A stretch of 64,000 bases of DNA. Origin: Gonapodya sp. JEL0774 (taxonomy: Eukaryota). Under the pieces are notes generated by a model that was not told the DNA's origin, made no database searches, and was given only the letters and a program-made list of their open reading frames with translations. Of this stretch, positions 17,711-32,533 are shown one piece after another. The position numbers were made by a program, and so were the translations under genes. The first letter of the stretch is position 1. Each line of letters opens with the position of its first letter. Where the stretch lies: assembly GCA_027604505.1 (NCBI GenBank), contig JADIIX010000021.1, positions 124,001 through 188,000 of the forward strand, given 5' to 3'.

Positions 17711-17720
17711 NNNNNNNNNN
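17711..17720. other. Scaffold gap (10 N) preceded by a poly-G run
   Basis: nnnnnnnnnn in the sequence. Confidence 0.99.
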
Positions 17721-23338: not shown

Positions 23339-24208
23339 TCACACTTTCGCAGGCGCAGGCGCCGAGACATGGCTGTCAGGGGAGACAGAACTTGTGTTTG
23401 TTTTCATCATCATCGTTCCGGAACGTGCCGTTGCAGAAGCAGAGGTCGCCGGCCCACTTTGGTTGGAGCCTTTTCCGGAAGCCGAGTTGCCACGTTCAAG
23501 CATGATGACGACCATTGCCGTGCCAACATAGATGGTAATGTTGTCACCCCAAGCTCTGCTGAGTCCCGACGCTGCATTCAGGACCGGAATCAACAACAGG
23601 AACCACGAGAGGCACCTCACGAGCACCAAGACGCCAACTTTGGATGCACGACTGTTGACATAGGCTGAAATGAACTTGGAAACCTCGGAGTTGTGGGTGA
23701 TGCGGATTCGCATCATGTGGCATGCGATCTGGACGATCAAGAAGGCTGCCAAGAGACCCTGAAGGCCCGTTGTTGCGGTGCCTGGAGTGCTTGTGAAGTT
23801 TTGAATCCAGTATGGTCCGATGGCGTTGTAGCACAGGAGAACTTCCCTCACAAAGGCCGTGAGGATGCTGAGGATGGTGGTGGCCCAGTTGACGTACTCG
23901 ACGATCCCTCTCTTTCCGACGACCAATTTGTCGCCAAACGTTGCCAAGAGCAGTGCTTCGGATGATTGAGTCAACCAACTGAAAGTTCGAGCGATGGCAT
24001 AGGTAGCTTGTGCACCGGTGGAGGCAGGGTCCATGTATGTGTAACCGAACATGAGGACAAATGTGAGCAAGTAGCCTGGTGCGATCACTCTTCCGGACCA
24101 AGAGAGGAGAGTGTTTGTCTTGTTGGAAATCATGAGCTGGTTGTGCACGAAGGCGATGGATGCGGTGACCAATGTCGCACATCGAGTCATTTGAGTGACG
24201 GTCGTCAT
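23339..24208 (-). CDS. Intronless ~7-TM membrane protein (GPCR-like architecture, family unassigned)
   Basis: 289-aa ORF with about seven hydrophobic segments and a Ser/Thr-rich C-terminal tail. Confidence 0.7.
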   Translation of the reverse strand: MTTVTQMTRCATLVTASIAFVHNQLMISNKTNTLLSWSGRVIAPGYLLTFVLMFGYTYMDPASTGAQATYAIARTFSWLTQSSEALLLATFGDKLVVGKRGIVEYVNWATTILSILTAFVREVLLCYNAIGPYWIQNFTSTPGTATTGLQGLLAAFLIVQIACHMMRIRITHNSEVSKFISAYVNSRASKVGVLVLVRCLSWFLLLIPVLNAASGLSRAWGDNITIYVGTAMVVIMLERGNSASGKGSNQSGPATSASATARSGTMMMKTNTSSVSPDSHVSAPAPAKV

Positions 24209-25276
24209 GGTGACAAGCTCGGTTGGACTATTCGCGTAGAAGATGGGACAAGACCTGAGAGTAACCTGGAAGGGGAATAGGTTGAAGTTTGCGGGGAACT
24301 TGACGGCATGCAGCGCTTCGGTTGTGATGGACGCTTCAAACCTACCAGCGGAGGGCGGATTTTTCGCAAGAACGGGTAGAAATTGCAGGGGGGTTTCGCA
24401 CAGAAGATGAGATGAGTGCCATGAGTGCCTGAATCGCTGCCTTCGCCTTGAGTGTGGAATTCAGGGTTTCAGGTAACAGAGCGAATGGACTGGATCTGGT
24501 GCTCTGGTCCGAATATAAAACAGTGTTTCTTAGCGAACACCTACCGAATACTGCTGTATGCACCAGGTGTTCATCTGCAAGGGCGGAGACATACCGTAAT
24601 AGTGAAAGAGATGTTGACTCGACAAAAGTTGCCCGATGAGGACACTTTCATTCCGTCTTTCTCCGCCCCGTTTTGATTTCTGTAATTAACTCATTTGATT
24701 GTGTGTGTCCAGTAACGACAAAAAATACCAGGAGAGCACAGGGAAATCGCCATGATATCCAAGGATAATTCCATTGGGGACGGAGTTGCCCTTTACGCGC
24801 TCATGTACTCTTATATCTCGCGAGCCTTCGTCGGACAGATGCGATAATAAAATGCATAATCCTTGAACGGATAATAGGAAACCAAGAACAGTTTTGGTGT
24901 GTCCGGGTTCTTGGGTCGGGCGAACCTGGGCCGGTGAGTCACCGAGTACCCAACGCCGGAGGCGGAGAAAGGTTTTAGACACCAGCGAGCGGCCGATTTC
25001 TGCTGAACGACAGAGCGAACAAAAAAAGCACAAAGAAAACTGGAACGAGAAATGACGTCAGAAGGCGGCGGAAGTGGAATTGCCCCCATGGAGCTTGGAA
25101 ACCGACACTTCTGGCTCTGACTCAAGGTGGAACATCATTCTTCCTCCAACTCCAATATAAGAGGGACAAAGAACCCGCGTTCACTTCAATCTCAGATTTG
25201 TTTTCCTTTTTTTCTGTTTCACACGCTTTTGCGCTTTTTCCATTCCCGTTTCCCACACCAAATTAATTTCAAGTCA

Positions 25277-28200
25277 ATGCTCACATCTTCCCGCGCTCCC
25301 ATCTCCCGCTCGATTCTGATCCGCGCATCGGCGACATCCTCCCTCCCGCTCAAACCTTCTCCCATTTTGCCCGCTTCTCCGGTTTCAATCGCATCGAAAT
25401 CGACCGGATCCCGCCGTTTCAATGGAACCCGGACTCCCCTTGCGCACCTGGCAGGTCGGATCCCCCACCGAAACGGGTTCGCAACGCAAGCTTCTCCTGC
25501 CGGCGCTCGCCATTCCAGTGCACAAGAGACATTGCTGGTGCTCTATGGCTCGCAGGTGTGTATGAGATAACGAGGTGGTGCGGTGAAATCAATGGAAATG
25601 GACTGGGAGGTCGGACTTCGAAGTTCCCCCGCGTGTCTGAGTTAATACTTTGACTTTCCGGACGAAACCCATGCGATCCTCAAATTTGATCGCGTTTTGA
25701 ACTCCGCGTCATGGAATTGATGTGCCCGAACCTTTTTGGCGTCACCTCCGTGCTTCGAAACCCCGTAACTTGCGTCATGTGGCGCCTGTACCTCTTTTTC
25801 TCTCCTTTTGGGGGAATTTTCCTCCATCTTTGTTTCCATTCTAACCTCATGACTTGCGTATCTTCCTCCACTCTCGCCTTGAATTTGTACCCCGCCTCTT
25901 TCCTTCTCCCCACTACGCCCGCCCAACCCCACTTCGCAATCCCCCTCCACCCTCAGACCGGCACCACCGCCTCCTACGCCCAGACCCTCGCCTCGTTCGC
26001 CCGCTCGCGTGGCATCGCCGTGCGTGTACAAGATATGAAGGCCTTTACGGACCAGTGGGGCACCCAAGGGGTCGTCAAGGGATTAGCCAAGGAGGGAAAC
26101 GTCGGTGGGTTCGACTTTTTTGCTTTGTTGTTTTGTTGGTTGCTGGGAGTGAGCGTGGACAGGGATGGAACGCGGTGTGGTGTACATGATCGGGTCCTGA
26201 GATGTGCCGTGAGGTGGAGGAATTGTATTCTCCGCAGTGTTCCCGCCCTGGTCCGCTTGGAATAATTTCAATGAACTTTTCTGACCATGAACGTTGCCTC
26301 TGTTTCTATCTTCCCCTCCTCCCATCCAGTGTTGATGACCTCGACGTTTTACAACGGTGTGTTCGCATGTTCTCTGTCTGTTGATCACTCTCACCCACTG
26401 ATCCACCTTTCCTCGCACGCACCTTCCCTCACACAATTAGGAGAGTTCCCGGATAATGGTACGGGCCTATATTTTCGCTTGGTCGTTCACACGATACCAA
26501 TGCGTACTTGAACACCACTCGCTCCAACCACCCGTAGCCCTATCGTTCTGGACCGCACTGTCCAAGGCCGATCCATCCACCGCACCGGCGTTGCTGGCCA
26601 ACACCAAGTTTGCCATCTTTGGCTTGGGAAACAAGTCCAACAAAGTAATTGACGGACCCCACCGTTTTGCATAGCATGATCACCGCACGCAGGCTCATCG
26701 CAAAACTCGACCAAATTCATTTTCCGCCTTCCGATCGCTCGATCCTGACACGATCCGTGCCTGACCGTTACCCACCACGCCAAACCCATCCCACAAGTCC
26801 AACTTCAACCTCGCCGCGCGCCGTCTCGAGCAGAGGATCAAAGAACTCGGTGGACGGGAATTTGTTCCGGCAGGTGTGTGTTGGTGTGATTTGCAGGATC
26901 TACTGCTCTGTCGCCTCGTCCCACATGCTGAGCTGACTAATCGACCCCTCACACGTCGCGCATTCCACATAACACCAGGGTACGGCGACGAACTGGCCGC
27001 CTCTTCCCACGAATCATCCTTCCGCCCCTTTTTGAAATCCATCTGGTCCGCCCTGTCCGCCTCGTCCACCGCCACCTCCCTGCCGTCCTCCTACACCGTC
27101 TCACCCGCTCCCCAGGGTGCAAAAGACGATACCGCTGCTGCTCGTGGCGAAGGCTTCAGGGAGGTGCGCGTGACGGGGAACAAGGTGTTGTCGGGGAAGG
27201 GAGTGCAAAGGGAGATCAGACTCGTTTCGGTCGCGGTGGAGGGAGGAGAAACTTACCCCTTGGCGGGTCATGTCTTGGTAAGTTGAAAGATTTCTTGAAT
27301 TGTGTTTCCTTCGGCATTCAAGATCAAGGCAAGATCAAGGTGTGAATGAACCTCTCGCTGTTCCACCTAGGTTTCCGTTCCGAACCCTTCCAGCTTGGTC
27401 TCGCGCGCCATCAGAGCACTGGCCCTGGGTCCTACCATCACCCCGACGACTCTCCTCTCCATCACCCCGACCACCGCCTCGTCCTCTTCTCCCCTACCCG
27501 CTACCACCACCCTCTCCTCGCTCCTCACACACCACATCGACTTGCAGGGGTTGGCGACAAGGAGCTTCTTGGAGGCTCTCAGCGTCGTGGCCACAGATAA
27601 GAGGGAGAAGGAAAGGTTGCAGGAGATCGCAGAGGGGATGGGAGGAGTAGGCGGAGATGGGTACGCGAGGTTGACCGAAGGCGAGGTGGGTGTTGCGATG
27701 GGAGGGCGGCTCTCGAGTGGGTGGCTGAACGGTGACTTTGTACCGTTTTCTCGGTAGATCTTCTCTTATGTCGATGCTATGGAGATGTTCCCTTCTGCCC
27801 GACTCTCGATCGACCAGTTGATGTCTATCGTGCCACGGATACAACCCAGGTGAGCGTCTCGTCAGGACTGAGAACCCTCACTCGAACGATGCCGGTTCTT
27901 GTTCACGCACGTGCTTGATGTGCTCGCTCTAAACCTCCTCACTCCTCCCACGCATAAAGGTACTACTCCATCTCTTCCTCCCCGCTCGCCCAACCCTCGG
28001 CCATCGACATTATCATCTGCAAAGACGTGTGGCCCACACTCTCCAACCCCGAGAACAAGTTCCAAGGGTTGGCTAGCAGTTACCTGTCTGGGTTGAAGAA
28101 TGGGGACAAGGTGCTGCTCAAGTGGCAGGAGAGTCCGGTCAAGGTTGATGCGGGGACAAAGGTCGTGGCGGTAGGACTAGGAACGGGCATCGGTGTACCC

Positions 28201-31200
28201 CGTGGCATTTTGCAACATTTCTCGGCACTCAAGAAGCAGGGGAAACCCGTCGTGCCGATGGAATTGTTTTATGGGTTCAGGCATGCTGAGAAGGATTTGG
28301 TCCTCGAAGATGAACTGCGCGGGTATGAGACGGAGGGGTTGTGCACGGTATGCTGTTTGAAACTACTCAGTTCACAGACAGTGGTGATTCACACACTCGC
28401 ACACTGGCACTTTGCTTTTTTCAAAACGCATGCACCATCTCAGCTCTCTTTCTCCGCCATGGATCAAGGCTCTCTCGTTACTGCAGCTATCTCCAAAACT
28501 CCCACTGTTGCCTCTACACTGCTCGACAACAATGGAATATTCCTGTACACCGGCCCGGGTGGCGTCGTTCCCCAAGCAGTGGAAGTAGCCGTGCAAGAAT
28601 CCATCGCTACTACTCGCTCCATCCACCCGCAATCGGCGGCATCGGAGCTCGCTGATCTCAAGGCTGACCCGTCCAGGTGGATTGTGGAAGCGTACTCGAG
28701 GGAAGCGGATGTGGAGAATCTCCTCAAGTCTTACACCACCAAGTTGGACTCGGAGAAGCCGCTGGCGAGCGTGTTTGAAGGAAGTAAGATGCTTTGCTTT
28801 CAGTGCGAGCAAACATTCCAAGGGAAGGGTTGTACCACGTAAGTTCTTGTTCTTGGAGAAGAATGTATAAACAGATAAACCAGAGTTTATGAAACAGGGT
28901 CGGTGTGTGTGGGAAGACTCCAGAAGGTTTGTTTTTCTGCGCTTGTCGCTGTCAGCGCATTCTGACCTGTCCACACACTCTCTCCCTCACTAGTTGCCGC
29001 CCTCCAAGATCTACTCGTTGACGTTGTTAAGCGCCTCGGCTGGGTGAACCACCAGATTCGAACTCTTGCGGGCTCCTCCAGTGGTCTCAATGACTCCTTA
29101 CTCAACGCGGTCAACAGCCGCGAATCGGACAAGTTCACCATGTTGGCGTTGTTCTCGACCTTAACTAATGTAAACTTTGATCCGGCATCGATCAGGGACT
29201 ACATCGTGAATGTTCGGTGAGTACAAATAGTCCCATCTGATTCGTTTGCAATGTGTGACCTGACCTCCTGCCCAGATATCAAACTGCTGCGCGCACGAAA
29301 GTCTACAACGACCTTTGTAAATCTCTCAACGTTGCTCCAAACACATGTCCGATTCCTGACCTCTCTGGGAATCTCACGGATCCCGGTGCCCTAGCCAAAA
29401 AGGGTGAACTTGTCGGCGTCCTTGCAAAGTTCCGCACGGTGAAGAACGACGTAGTGGTTGGATTGGCAGAAATGTTAGTGTACGGTCTCAAGGGAGTTTG
29501 TGCCTACGGGGACCACGCGGTGCTTCTCGGAGAGGAGGACGCCAGAGTTTTTAACTACCTCAACGAGGCACTCGCGTTCTTGATCAGTCCTGAGAGTGCA
29601 AATTTGGATGCGGTAGTGCAGATGCTGCTTCGATGTGGTGAAGCGAACCTCATCACCATGGATACACTCCATCGCGCGAACACAAAGCGTGAGTTGTGTG
29701 GGAGCATTACGATCGCGTCGCTTTATTGAAACATTTTGTACCTTTCAATGTCTACAGACGGCGCTCAGTCTCCCGCTTCCGTGACGGTGGGACCGACTCC
29801 TGGAAAGGCAATTCTGATCTCTGGTCACGACATGAAATACCTGGAGGAACTCCTCGAACAAACGAAGGGAACAGGCGTCAACGTGTACACACACGGCGAA
29901 ATGCTCCCAGCGCACGGCTACCCCAAGCTCCGTGACTATGGGAACCTCGTCGGACACTTTGGCGTTGCGTGGCAGAGGCAGAGTAAGTCTCTCAAATTGG
30001 TTGAACATGAAATCTTGTGATGAATTTGACGCTTTCCCATCGTCTGCTGTCTTTTGACTCCAGCCGTGGAATTCCCGCACTTCCCGGGTCCAATCGTCAT
30101 GACCTCCAATTGTCTGGTGCCACCCAAGGATGATCTCAAGGACAGAATATTTACTGCTGGGTGAGTGTTCGGAAGCCGCGTTCCCGTTGCTGAGCCATCA
30201 CCATCATCTCTTGCTTAGGGCGGTCGCGTACCCGGGATGTCCAACAGTCGACTCCAGCAACTACGACTTTTCCGCTGTGATCAAGAAGGCACAGGAGATG
30301 ACAGGCTTCAGGGAAACCGACACCGAGTTCACGTATCCCCTTGATCGTGAGCGCCATTGTTAGGTGCACGAGTTTTCGCACCGAATCTGATCAATACGTC
30401 TTTCTCTGAATCACATCAGCTTTCGGCAAGCCCGCCAAAAGCTACAATGTCGGTTTCGCGTACGAAACCGTGCTTTCCGTGGCCCCGCAGGTGATTTCGG
30501 CGATCGAGAAGGGCGACATTACCCGGTTCTACTACATTGGGTGAGAGATCTCATGTGGTTTGGTTAGAATTGTCGGATACTGAATTCTCCACTTGATTGA
30601 CAATACTAGAGGGTGCGACGGGTTTGAGGGAGAGCGCAACTACTGTTCGTACCACGTAATTCGTGGGTCTGGGTCATCGTAAGCTCACTTTCTCTTCCAT
30701 CAACGTCATACAGACACCGAACTCATGGAAAACCTGCCTCCCACATCTGTGGTCCTCACCTCTGGGTGCGGAAAGTACCGGGTGTTGGGCGATAAGCTCC
30801 AGTATGCGACGATTGGTGACACCGGGATCCCGAGATTGCTCGATTTGGGCCAGTGCAATGACGCGTAAGTGTGTTGTTTGATCACGTGACTATGGCCGGG
30901 TTATCAGAGTTGTGGTCTTTAGATACTCGGCGATCAAAATCGCAGTTGCCTTGGCTGAGCATTTCAAGTGTGGCGGTGAGTCAAAGGCCGTGGCTGTTTC
31001 GTTCTCACGGTCATGGAGTCATTCATGGTGTTGTTTTCGATTAGTGAACGACTTGCCTCTCAACCTGGTCGTTTCTTGGTTCGAACAGAAGGCCGTCGCC
31101 ATCTTGCTGACACTTCTTCACCTGAATCTGAAGGGCGTAAGTTGAAGTGCTCGGCGTCCAATATTTTGAACCTTTTACAAACTCAGCTCACTGTTTCCAC

Positions 31201-31337
31201 CTGAACAGGTCCGAATCGGTCCCCGCCTTCCAGCTTTTATCCGTCCAGCAGCATTGGAATTCTTGGTGAAAACTTTTGATTTAAAGGCCATTGGAGATGC
31301 ACAGGAAGATCTTAAGGCGATGACTGGACAAAACTAA
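25277..31337 (+). CDS. hcp: Fusion protein: mitochondrial-type presequence + CPR-like diflavin reductase (flavodoxin/FAD/NAD(P)H) + hybrid cluster protein (hydroxylamine/NO reductase family)
   Basis: About 23 exons. Flavodoxin: [88 protein letters not shown]. The same exon (28444-28838) continues into [26 protein letters not shown]. Hcp motifs follow: [56 protein letters not shown] and IGPRLPAF. Stop TAA at 31335-31337. Confidence 0.93.
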
Positions 31338-31600
31338 CGCCACGAGGGAGGAGAATCTGATCTGCATGGAAAAATTTAATTCGAATAATGCACTGGTAGA
31401 TATCGCATGACTTGACATGTACAGTCTGACTCAAAGACTTTCCAATATTGAAATCAAAATTGCCTTTGACAAATGGGTTCAAGAAATGTCAAACAGCACT
31501 GTAGAGACGCGCGACAAGTACATGTAAAGTAAATTAAGCGAGAGTGCCGATTGGCAGTGTGTTCCTACAGTAGCTTCTAATACACCACGCCGATTGTTCA

Positions 31601-32533
31601 TTAAGTTGCACGGCATACAACTCTTCCAGCCGCACTATTAAACGCGCAGATCTGCGGTCGAAGGGCCTGGATCTGTTTCTTGTCCTTTGGAATCCTTTGC
31701 ACAGGCCGCGTGCACACGCAACCGTTGTCCACATACCCAGGTGCGCAATTATCACAGCATGACTATTGCGACAGTGATTTGGCAATAATCAGACATTGAC
31801 GTTGTGCGTACGTCACCGGGACGGGAGGTGGGTGGGAGGGGGGGGGGGAATAAGAGGTGGGATGTGTCCAACAAACAAAATGGACAAAGTGTCATTTTCG
31901 CCACGACGGTCCAAAGTCTGGTCAAGTTTGCCCTCACTGTTCCAAAGATAGTCCGTATGCAACAACTTTGAAGGGGGACAGAGAGTGAGATTTTGAAGAC
32001 ATGATGCGAGGCATAGAGGCGGACACTCACCATCCTTGAGGTTTCCAGTATGTGTTTAGGTCAAGCCAACAAGCAACTCCGTCATCACGCCATCCTGGCT
32101 GGCATTTTTGCAGGCAATAGACTGGCAGACGGGTCAATCGTCAATCCACGAAAGGGGGAACATAAATCGCAAACCACGAACAAGCCGGATTGGAATCACT
32201 GGTTGCAATTAGAGGATCCTCGAAGACAACTTCGTATCCAAAAGGACACTTCTCGACTAAAATCGATCAATCACGTCACCAAAAACTATGTTCGTTGCTT
32301 CAGCGGATGGTATTCACGAACTCACGACAGAACAAACGGTTGTCGCGGAGTGTAAACACTTTGAAGCGATCCGGGGAAGAACACTCTGCTGACTCTCCCG
32401 TTTTCAAATCTGTTTTCAATATCGCAGCAGCATAATGCCGGCCGTGAACGACTATCAGGAACAGCCCGATGACCACTGTCCAGACTGTTCCGATCACGAA
32501 GCTCTGACGAGTCCTGCTTAAAGGTGAGTTCAT
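31601..32533 (-). CDS. Small Cys-rich secreted/anchored protein (5 exons)
   Basis: Phase-consistent splicing gives MNSPLSRTRQSFVIGTVWTVVIGLFLIVVHG...AECSSPDRFKVFTLRDNRLFC|LEKCPFGYEVVFEDPLIATSDSNPA|FYCLQKCQPGWRDDGVACWLDLNTYWKPQG|CCCIRTIFGT|SCCDNCAPGYVDNGCVCTRP...VVCRAT*. An alternative start exists at 32578. Confidence 0.75.

What the first reader, a model, noticed from the sequence alone, without database searches (positions are those of the whole stretch)
25277..31337. Single-chain diflavin reductase-hybrid cluster protein (CPR-Hcp) fusion in an intron-rich, probably fungal genome
Seen: a complete flavodoxin + FAD + NAD(P)H reductase ends in RWIVEAYS (28675-28698). It runs through a ~30-aa linker into the Hcp N-terminus MLCFQCEQT (ATG 28789) within one exon, with no stop or splice site between, so the fusion is not a gene-model artefact. 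The Hcp has CX2CX8CX5C cubane ligands (class I spacing) and the hybrid-cluster ligand motifs (GHD, HGE, SNC, GCDG, GCGK, GQCND, WFEQKA). Established: Hcp is mainly a prokaryotic anaerobe protein implicated in NO/hydroxylamine reduction. In enterobacteria it takes electrons from a separate Hcr (FAD/2Fe-2S NADH oxidoreductase), and eukaryotic copies are patchy. Inference: this is a self-sufficient NAD(P)H-to-FAD-to-FMN-to-[4Fe-4S]-to-hybrid-cluster enzyme, built like P450BM3/NOS but with an Hcp acceptor, possibly for nitrosative-stress defence or as an electron sink in hypoxia. I do not know of this architecture being characterised.
Basis: partly seen in the sequence, partly recalled or inferred. 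Interest (0 to 1): 0.93.

Follow-up and report, generated by a model that had tools for sequence, protein, structure and literature searches.

The report
Flavin reductase–hybrid cluster protein fusion
An aquatic fungus carries one intact gene that joins an iron-sulfur enzyme, which bacteria use against nitric oxide, to its own two-flavin electron-supply module; the same fusion occurs in many unrelated microbial eukaryotes, and it likely works as a self-contained nitric oxide reductase (predicted to be mitochondrial and to accept NADH), which would make this enzyme class's unknown electron donor directly testable.

Summary
Confirmed. One 23-exon ORF (25277-31337, 1279 aa) encodes an acid-free, presequence-like N-terminus, an FMN/FAD diflavin reductase, a 31-aa linker and a class I-type Hcp with every cluster ligand. 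The junction lies inside one exon.

It is not unique. 75 sequence clusters share the fusion (fungi, ichthyosporeans, oomycetes, glaucophytes, euglenozoans, Chromera, a pelagophyte); every organism-named one is a eukaryote. Each half forms one clade and the two trees agree, so one origin is likely. Fungal monophyly is rejected, pointing to transfer between eukaryotes or old paralogy.

New inferences: NADPH-binding residues are lost; the linker aligns to the NOS C-terminal tail, with a near-invariant Asp at the offset of nNOS Arg1400, suggesting NADH use. The catalytic-Cys position is Thr in this lineage.

In print I found only a table footnote (Cyanophora) and no biochemistry. This scan found the fusion before in Basidiobolus-type genomes.

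The parts
25277..31337 (+). Whole gene, 23 exons, 1279 aa. Exons: 25277-25555, 25957-26104, 26330-26356, 26441-26458, 26538-26644, 26798-26873, 26979-27277, 27371-27685, 27758-27849, 27960-28347, 28444-28838, 28898-28926, 28994-29216, 29276-29688, 29758-29982, 30064-30160, 30219-30346, 30420-30540, 30610-30644, 30714-30864, 30923-30975, 31045-31136, 31209-31337
   Evidence: 22 of 22 introns GT..AG, no internal stop; agrees with P0001 at 605/613 and 554/555 positions outside the two places where P0001 differs
25277..25528 (+). N-terminal extension aa 1-84, likely a mitochondrial presequence (aa 1-83: 9 Arg, 2 Lys, 16 Ser, 12 Ala, no Asp/Glu)
   Evidence: chance of no acidic residue about 1e-4 at the protein's own D+E rate; the orthologue P0002 has a similar 84-aa extension with one Glu. 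No targeting predictor was available; inference
25529..27061 (+). Flavodoxin (FMN) domain aa 85-246, exons 1-7; phosphate loop YGSQTGT, STFYNG and GLGN motifs; net charge +5
   Evidence: Pfam Flavodoxin_1 on homologue P0003, E 2.5e-26; motif table; charge. The short exons alone gave no Pfam hit
27164..28143 (+). FAD-binding and connecting domains aa 281-515; RYYS (Arg454, Ser457), GLAS
   Evidence: Pfam FAD_binding_1; fold matches to BM3/CPR/NOS FAD modules, Z 37-39, rmsd 2.5-3.2 A on homologue model
28144..28695 (+). NAD(P)-binding domain aa 516-667: GLGTG; Ala588-Met589 in place of the Ser-Arg 2'-phosphate pair; Thr619 at the catalytic-Cys position; Glu665; FAD-stacking Tyr667
   Evidence: alignment to BM3
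28348..28443 (+). Intron 10, 96 nt, in frame and without a stop
   Evidence: absent from homologues
28696..28788 (+). Linker aa 668-698: conserved D-x-E-N (Asp672 66/67, E/D674 67/67, Asn675 65/67) starting a predicted helix that aligns with the NOS C-terminal tail
28784..28789 (+). Donor-like GT site used by public model P0001, which removes the cubane motif; judged a gene-model error or minor isoform
28789..31337 (+). Hcp domain aa 699-1279: cubane Cys at 28795, 28804, 28831, 28908; hybrid-cluster ligands His 29826, Glu 29898, Cys 30111, Cys 30614, Cys 30767, Cys 30854, Glu 31083; Lys 31089
   Evidence: Pfam Prismane on exons; NCBIfam hcp equivalog 593-636 bits against cut-offs 361-367 on orthologue P0002; alignment to solved Hcps; coordinates

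Best explanation
The gene encodes one polypeptide in which a two-flavin reductase is joined N-terminally to a complete class I-type hybrid cluster protein, and it likely acts as a self-sufficient nitric oxide reductase: NAD(P)H (probably NADH) would reduce FAD, the FMN domain would swing to pass single electrons to the [4Fe-4S] cubane, and the hybrid cluster would reduce NO to N2O, likely inside the mitochondrion under low oxygen. Shown: the single ORF, domain order, ligands, family conservation, joint inheritance of the halves. Inferred, with my odds: electrons pass from this reductase to this Hcp 0.85; through FMN 0.7; NADH usable or preferred 0.6; NO is the main physiological substrate 0.55-0.6; mitochondrial in this species 0.75; the linker helix gates the flavins like the NOS tail 0.45.
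For: Junction within one exon and conserved in 75 clusters, including full-length EukProt/MMETSP transcript-type records. Both halves monophyletic (97/93; 99) with congruent distances (Mantel r 0.875, 32 taxa). Cubane Cys 67/67 and hybrid ligands 65-67/67; FMN and FAD motifs kept. Homologue model pLDDT 87.6, pTM 0.82; FMN domain not in the closed CPR pose (rmsd about 9-11 A to closed CPRs while the FAD module fits at 2.5-3.2 A). FMN domain near neutral (family -5 to +8, window +5) against -17 to -21 in three CPRs, which suits the negative surface around the cubane access of class I Hcp (PMC10210160). A natural flavodoxin-Hcp form lacking the FAD module (P0118) nests in the clade. BM3 Arg966/Lys972/Tyr974/Trp1046, whose joint mutation shifts BM3 towards NADH (PMC5817062 table), are all replaced. 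NO reduction is the favoured role of bacterial Hcp, hydroxylamine and peroxide being judged side reactions (PMC10210160). Acanthamoeba Hcp is mitochondrial and anoxia-induced (PMC13632651); G. prolifera comes from submerged fruit and has an anaerobic-type Ura9 (PMC8520639).
Against: No activity, cofactor or transcript data for this gene. The catalytic-Cys position is Thr619 (Cys in 56 of 67; Thr in the 5 monoblepharid sequences), which may slow hydride transfer. The public annotation removes the cubane and the FMN phosphate loop. Many family members start at the flavodoxin with no presequence, so location is not a family trait. None of the papers I read shows NO reduction by a eukaryotic Hcp. 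No nitrogen or anaerobic gene was among the Pfam hits of 50 window ORFs scanned out of 114 listed. The Asp672/Arg1400 equivalence rests on offsets and alignment end points, and the nNOS profile alignment carries a 3-residue shift somewhere in the tail.
Confidence: 0.55

Rival explanations
1. Same internal wiring, different job: the enzyme mainly reduces hydroxylamine or peroxide, makes S-nitrosothiols, or serves as an electron sink that reoxidises NADH in fermentation.
For: All these activities are reported or proposed for Hcps and the role is called elusive (PMC10210160); Chlamydomonas HCP4 is proposed to oxidise ferredoxin (PMC8003979). Sequence cannot tell the substrates apart.
Against: Hydroxylamine KM is millimolar and peroxidase turnover 0.05-0.17 per s, both judged non-physiological.
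Confidence: 0.25
2. FAD reduces the cubane directly, as FNR reduces ferredoxin, and the FMN domain feeds other acceptors.
For: The cubane is tethered 33 residues after the FAD-stacking Tyr, with tight length conservation (31-35 in 55 of 67); the terminal E-x-Y/F resembles FNR/CysJ/NOS rather than CPR; pTM 0.82 implies the FAD module is placed confidently against Hcp (my arithmetic).
Against: FMN motifs are kept in nearly all full-length members; P0118 keeps flavodoxin + Hcp and lacks the FAD module; the usual diflavin route is FAD to FMN to acceptor (PMC3509625).
Confidence: 0.1
3. In this lineage the fusion is partly degenerate: the reductase is a poor hydride-transfer catalyst (Thr619, Ala588-Met589, GLGTG), or the cubane-less splice form is the main product, and Hcp takes electrons from another donor.
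For: Thr619 is confined to monoblepharids; reductase halves evolve 1.6 times faster than Hcp halves; P0001 uses the 28784 donor.
Against: Reductase domains are 60-69% identical to the G. prolifera orthologue against 25-32% for presequence and hinge; Thr is shared by all five monoblepharid copies; the skipped segment is 26/28 identical; the donor is weak.
Confidence: 0.08
4. Two neighbouring genes or an assembly or gene-model artefact.
For: No transcript of this locus was seen.
Against: Stop-free junction within one exon, no N nearby, and the same junction in 75 clusters from several eukaryotic supergroups.
Confidence: 0.02

Closest known systems
Class I hybrid cluster proteins (Desulfovibrio 1E2U/1GN9, Methanothermococcus 8CNR)
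   Same: Cubane spacing, all hybrid-cluster ligands, fold (Z 46-47.5, rmsd 1.8-2.0 A over 536-541 residues)
   Different: Stand-alone, with an electron donor stated to be unknown (PMC10210160); here a reductase is fused in front
E. coli Hcp-Hcr (class II Hcp with its NADH oxidoreductase)
   Same: Hcp paired with a dedicated NAD(P)H flavoenzyme for NO reduction
   Different: Two proteins; Hcr is an FAD/[2Fe-2S] enzyme (reference title); class II cubane insertion absent here (68 of 68 fusions have 8/5 spacing)
Cytochrome P450 BM3 and nitric oxide synthase
   Same: Diflavin module fused to its acceptor; same FMN-connecting-FAD-NAD(P) order; the linker aligns with the NOS C-terminal tail
   Different: Acceptor is C-terminal Fe-S, not N-terminal haem; separate reductase clade from BM3 (NOS was not in the tree); NADPH-binding residues replaced
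NADPH-cytochrome P450 reductase (CPR/POR) and sulfite reductase flavoprotein CysJ
   Same: Fold and domain order, about 25% identity
   Different: Outside both clades; no membrane anchor; no terminal Trp; CysJ model score 148 against cut-off 668; FMN domain not strongly acidic
Diflavin fusions of anaerobic protists (PNO, CysJ-fused [FeFe]-hydrogenase; PMC4989108)
   Same: A diflavin module grafted on an anaerobic Fe-S enzyme in eukaryotes; the nearest non-Hcp relative found is such a module in a ciliate fusion, P0377
   Different: Those modules are C-terminal. PNO and hydrogenase modules were not among my sequences, so kinship is untested
[quoted passage not shown]
   Same: Almost certainly this family: the Cyanophora record P0095 has the same architecture and sits in the clade
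   Different: One footnote, no analysis; the reductase is not CysJ

Membership tests
Hybrid cluster protein (Prismane, hcp) | Prismane/hcp profile above cut-off | tested here: met
   Pfam on window exons, 3 of 5 above the 27-bit cut-off; NCBIfam hcp equivalogs on P0001-P0003
Hybrid cluster protein (Prismane, hcp) | Four N-terminal cubane Cys and the His/Glu/4Cys/Glu hybrid-cluster ligands | tested here: met
   Cys402, Cys455 and Glu490 of 8CNR named in PMC10210160; roles of the other ligands recalled
Hybrid cluster protein (Prismane, hcp) | Bound [4Fe-4S] and hybrid cluster; NO or hydroxylamine reduction | not testable with these tools
   needs purified protein
Class I Hcp | CX2CX8CX5C without the class II insertion, full N-terminal helical domain | tested here: met
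   full-length match to class I structures, while class III 7E0L aligns over about 414 residues only
Class II Hcp-Hcr system | Cubane insertion (X11) and a separate FAD/[2Fe-2S] Hcr | tested here: not met
   spacing 8/5; partner is a fused diflavin module
Diflavin reductase superfamily | Flavodoxin + connecting + FNR-like module in one chain with FMN/FAD motifs | tested here: met
Diflavin reductase superfamily | Ser/Cys/Asp hydride-transfer triad (role recalled from CPR) | tested here: inconclusive
   Ser457 kept, Asp is Glu665 (65 of 67), Cys is Thr619 here (Cys in 56 of 67)
CPR/POR orthologues | Membership of the CPR clade; N-terminal membrane anchor; terminal Trp; Ser596/Arg597/Lys602 | tested here: not met
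   tree; motif table; BM3 alignment; residues named in PMC3105092
CysJ | cysJ equivalog score and clade | tested here: not met
   148 and 155 bits against 668
BM3/NOS-type flavocytochromes | N-terminal haem domain with C-terminal diflavin module | tested here: not met
   order reversed, acceptor is Hcp
PNO / hydrogenase-CysJ diflavin modules | Common origin of the reductase module | not tested
   no PNO or hydrogenase fusion among the sequences fetched; only P0377 as a proxy

The most novel reading that the evidence does not exclude
A eukaryote-specific, single-origin enzyme family: an NADH-driven one-chain NO reductase built back to front relative to BM3/NOS, in which the NOS-like regulatory tail serves as the interdomain linker and its conserved Asp sets cofactor choice. 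It supplies the missing electron donor of class I Hcp, works in mitochondria in this fungus, and has moved between fungi, ichthyosporeans, oomycetes, glaucophytes and euglenozoans by eukaryote-to-eukaryote transfer.
Probability: 0.3. Interest if true: 0.82.

Novelty: new variant of a known kind. Interest (0 to 1): 0.6.

Why it matters
The electron donor of class I Hcp is stated to be unknown (PMC10210160) and the role of eukaryotic, mitochondrial Hcp is open (PMC13632651). A one-chain enzyme that needs only NAD(P)H removes the missing-partner problem, so substrate, affinity and turnover can be measured with a physiological donor. It is also an unusual diflavin design (acceptor after the FAD-shielding residue, natural loss of NADPH determinants) and a marker of low-oxygen nitrogen metabolism in early-diverging fungi and protists. 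The architecture itself is already in databases under automatic names, which caps the surprise.

Tried and rejected
No whole genome is held for this window, so paralogues and anaerobic pathway genes could not be searched in it. No sequencing run was listed for the locus; this is no evidence on expression. A fold of the natural flavodoxin-Hcp protein P0118 gave pTM 0.83, between my rough estimates for an unplaced (about 0.76) and a docked (about 0.90) flavodoxin: inconclusive. Stand-alone orthologue of the reductase: none close among 42 shorter hits, 22-36% identity. ESM Atlas gave only generic diflavin clusters; a second Atlas query on the neighbouring ORF did not complete. The careful reductase tree did not finish; the quick tree is cited. 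Trees used LG+G4 without a mixture model. Repeats in 24400-32000 were short two-copy chance-type matches. Literature: searches found no study of the fusion; van Lis 2020 (PMID 31361397) is not held; Hagen 2022 and the MitoTOL companion paper were not seen; supplements of PMC8003979 and PMC13632651 were not opened and may list such fusions.


Full report
Observation. The stretch 25277-31337 (+) holds one gene. A 23-exon model with 22 of 22 GT..AG introns gives 1279 residues and only the terminal stop (two earlier attempts with a wrong exon edge are). The reductase end (28675-28698), the linker and the Hcp ATG (28789) lie in exon 11 (28444-28838), within a stop-free frame 27958-28842. Exon-level Pfam gave FAD_binding_1 and Prismane; the short flavodoxin exons gave nothing, but the homologue P0003 scores Flavodoxin_1, FAD_binding_1 and Prismane. 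The four cubane Cys and the hybrid-cluster ligands are present. The window's 10 N lie far away, at 17711-17720.

One correction. A donor-like GT sits at 28784. The public protein P0001 (named by NCBI as Gonapodya sp. JEL0774) matches my model at 605 of 613 and 554 of 555 positions in two blocks, but starts in another frame and splices out residues 697-724. This keeps the fusion and loses the cubane. I judge it a model error or a minor form: the site scores 3.6 bits against 8.1 for the donor at 28839, 23 of 199 exonic GT sites score as high, and the skipped piece is 26/28 identical in G. prolifera. No RNA run was listed to settle it.

Family. Two homologue searches (91 hits, best 120 of 146) gave 75 clusters at 90% identity with a reductase plus Prismane, 71 of them with all three Pfam domains. 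32 carry an organism name and two more are named through cluster members. All are eukaryotes: Gonapodya, Hyaloraphidium, Polychytrium, Podochytrium, Siphonaria, Basidiobolus, Creolimax, Sphaeroforma, Aphanomyces, Thraustotheca, Achlya, Chrysophaeum, Chromera, Cyanophora, Cyanoptyche, Papus, Rhabdomonas and Euglena mutabilis. The rest are unnamed. Several full-length members are transcript-type records, so relatives make the fusion as one mRNA.

Origin. In a 273-row FastTree the 68 fusion rows group together (95) with two stand-alone rows from short contigs nested inside. In a 61-row IQ-TREE the 34 fusion rows form one clade (97/93), next to stand-alone Hcps of Alphamonas and Pygsuia. In a 61-row quick tree the 32 reductase halves form one clade (99) apart from CPR, CysJ, BM3 and the NDOR1- and MTRR-like rows; the nearest outside row is the diflavin module of a ciliate fusion, P0377. 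Distances in the two trees agree (Mantel r 0.875, p 0.001, 32 taxa; related taxa inflate this). Inside the clade, chytrids and ichthyosporeans join oomycetes (100/100). AU tests reject monophyly of the 10 fungal rows (p 0.0012) and of the 12 opisthokont rows (p 7e-5); both groups were tested after I had seen the tree, under LG+G4. One fusion event followed by transfer between eukaryotes is the simplest reading; old duplication with loss is not excluded.

The reductase is not CPR. It lacks a membrane anchor and begins with an 83-residue stretch rich in Arg, Ser and Ala without any Asp or Glu, read here as a mitochondrial presequence; many members lack one. Against BM3 the Ser-Arg pair is Ala588-Met589 (family Ser-His; Arg in 6 of 67), the downstream Lys and Tyr are replaced, the Asp is Glu665 (65 of 67) and the shielding Trp is Tyr667 (Phe 47, Tyr 20). 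These are the CPR 2'-phosphate residues (PMC3105092, one passage) and the BM3 positions whose joint mutation shifts it towards NADH (PMC5817062, table passages). The Cys of the hydride-transfer triad (role recalled) is kept in 56 of 67 but is Thr619 in the five monoblepharid sequences; this counts against full activity. The FMN domain is near neutral (63 members, -5 to +8; window +5), against -17 to -21 in three CPRs, -8 and -9 in two BM3s, -3 in one CysJ and +2 in one NDOR1.

The linker is structured. From Tyr667 to the first Cys is 31-35 residues in 55 of 67 members, and a D-x-E-N motif is nearly invariant. The homologue model (pLDDT 87.6, pTM 0.82, 69 sequences) puts a helix there. The structural alignment runs past the shielding aromatic in nNOS (to 1411) and cyanobacterial NOS (to 1463), while CPR, BM3 and CysJ end at it. 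Sequence profiles also extend into both NOS tails, without net shift for cyanobacterial NOS and with a 3-residue shift for nNOS. Asp672 lies five residues after the aromatic, as does nNOS Arg1400, which contacts NADPH phosphates and locks the FMN domain (PMC6451115 and PMC12922734, passages). I did not see this pairing residue by residue; it is an inference that again points to NADH and to gating by the linker.

Mechanism. The usual diflavin route is NAD(P)H to FAD to FMN to acceptor (PMC3509625, passages). The model's FMN domain is not in the closed CPR pose. A natural flavodoxin-Hcp protein without the FAD module and without D-x-E-N (P0118) nests in the clade, which favours FMN as the direct donor; its fold was inconclusive on docking (pTM 0.83), and the complex predictor was not available. 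For the substrate, NO to N2O is the favoured role of bacterial Hcp, with hydroxylamine and peroxide judged side reactions (PMC10210160, introduction read whole plus passages). Acanthamoeba Hcp is mitochondrial and rises in anoxia (PMC13632651, passages). G. prolifera is from submerged fruit and has an anaerobic-type Ura9 (PMC8520639, passages). Neighbouring ORFs with Pfam hits are housekeeping genes (13 of 50 scanned had a hit).

Prior knowledge. Searches found no study of this architecture. The one mention is a Table 4 footnote for Cyanophora (PMC8003979, passages and part of the tables section). The passages shown from PMC1484493, PMC8219788, PMC2275785, PMC13198582 and PMC4989108 did not mention it; the last describes C-terminal CysJ-like modules on hydrogenases and PNO. 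van Lis 2020 is not held; Hagen 2022 and the MitoTOL companion paper were not seen; no supplements were opened. Earlier notes of this scan report the same fusion in Basidiobolus-type genomes and head-to-head hcp/reductase pairs in Naegleria and diatoms. I confirmed the former at family level and did not test the latter.

Verdict. Real, intact, and a new variant of known parts: an uncharacterised, widespread eukaryotic family rather than a singular find. It makes a stated open question, the donor and substrate of class I-type Hcp, testable with one protein. Interest 0.6.

Noticed in passing
P0118 (756 aa, Logan and ENA): Flavodoxin joined directly to Hcp, with the FAD/NAD module and the D-x-E-N helix missing; nested inside the fusion clade.
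   Followed up: partly
P0184 and P0296: Other donor fusions: Hcp + cytochrome b5 + b5-reductase-like domains (P0184), and cytochrome b5 + Hcp (P0296, 10 cluster members).
   Followed up: no
P0174-P0176, P0178, P0179 and related: Group of about 715-725-aa Hcps fused to rubredoxin and flavin-reductase domains (PF21349, PF00301, PF01613), placed far from the eukaryotic group.
   Followed up: no
P0377 (Muranothrix gubernata, 1560 aa): DAO-family FAD oxidoreductase + BFD [2Fe-2S] + Pyr_redox + DUF1667 (glycerol-3-phosphate dehydrogenase-like, my reading) fused to a C-terminal diflavin module that is the nearest relative of the Hcp-fused reductase.
   Followed up: partly
P0324 (1839 aa, JGI): Protein of six tandem flavodoxin domains resembling this family's FMN domain.
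   Followed up: no
P0204, P0225, P0244: Soluble diflavin reductases ending without a shielding aromatic; P0204 groups near CPR, not with the fusion. They may be the Hcp-adjacent reductases of earlier notes, which would mean an independent recruitment; adjacency not tested.
   Followed up: partly
P0004, P0005: Both Gonapodya species have a second fusion paralogue; the duplication appears to predate the Gonapodya-Hyaloraphidium split in the Hcp tree.
   Followed up: partly
window 23339-24460 (-): 373-aa open frame divergent from the fusion gene, about 800 nt upstream, three moderately hydrophobic segments, no Pfam hit.
   Followed up: partly
window 45-63650: Housekeeping neighbours by Pfam: ABC transporter, CrcB/Fluc, F-box, tyrosine phosphatase, protein kinase, PLP enzyme, ankyrin, COG5, ELO, RIC1.
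   Followed up: no
window 17711-17720: Run of 10 N, an assembly gap.
   Followed up: no
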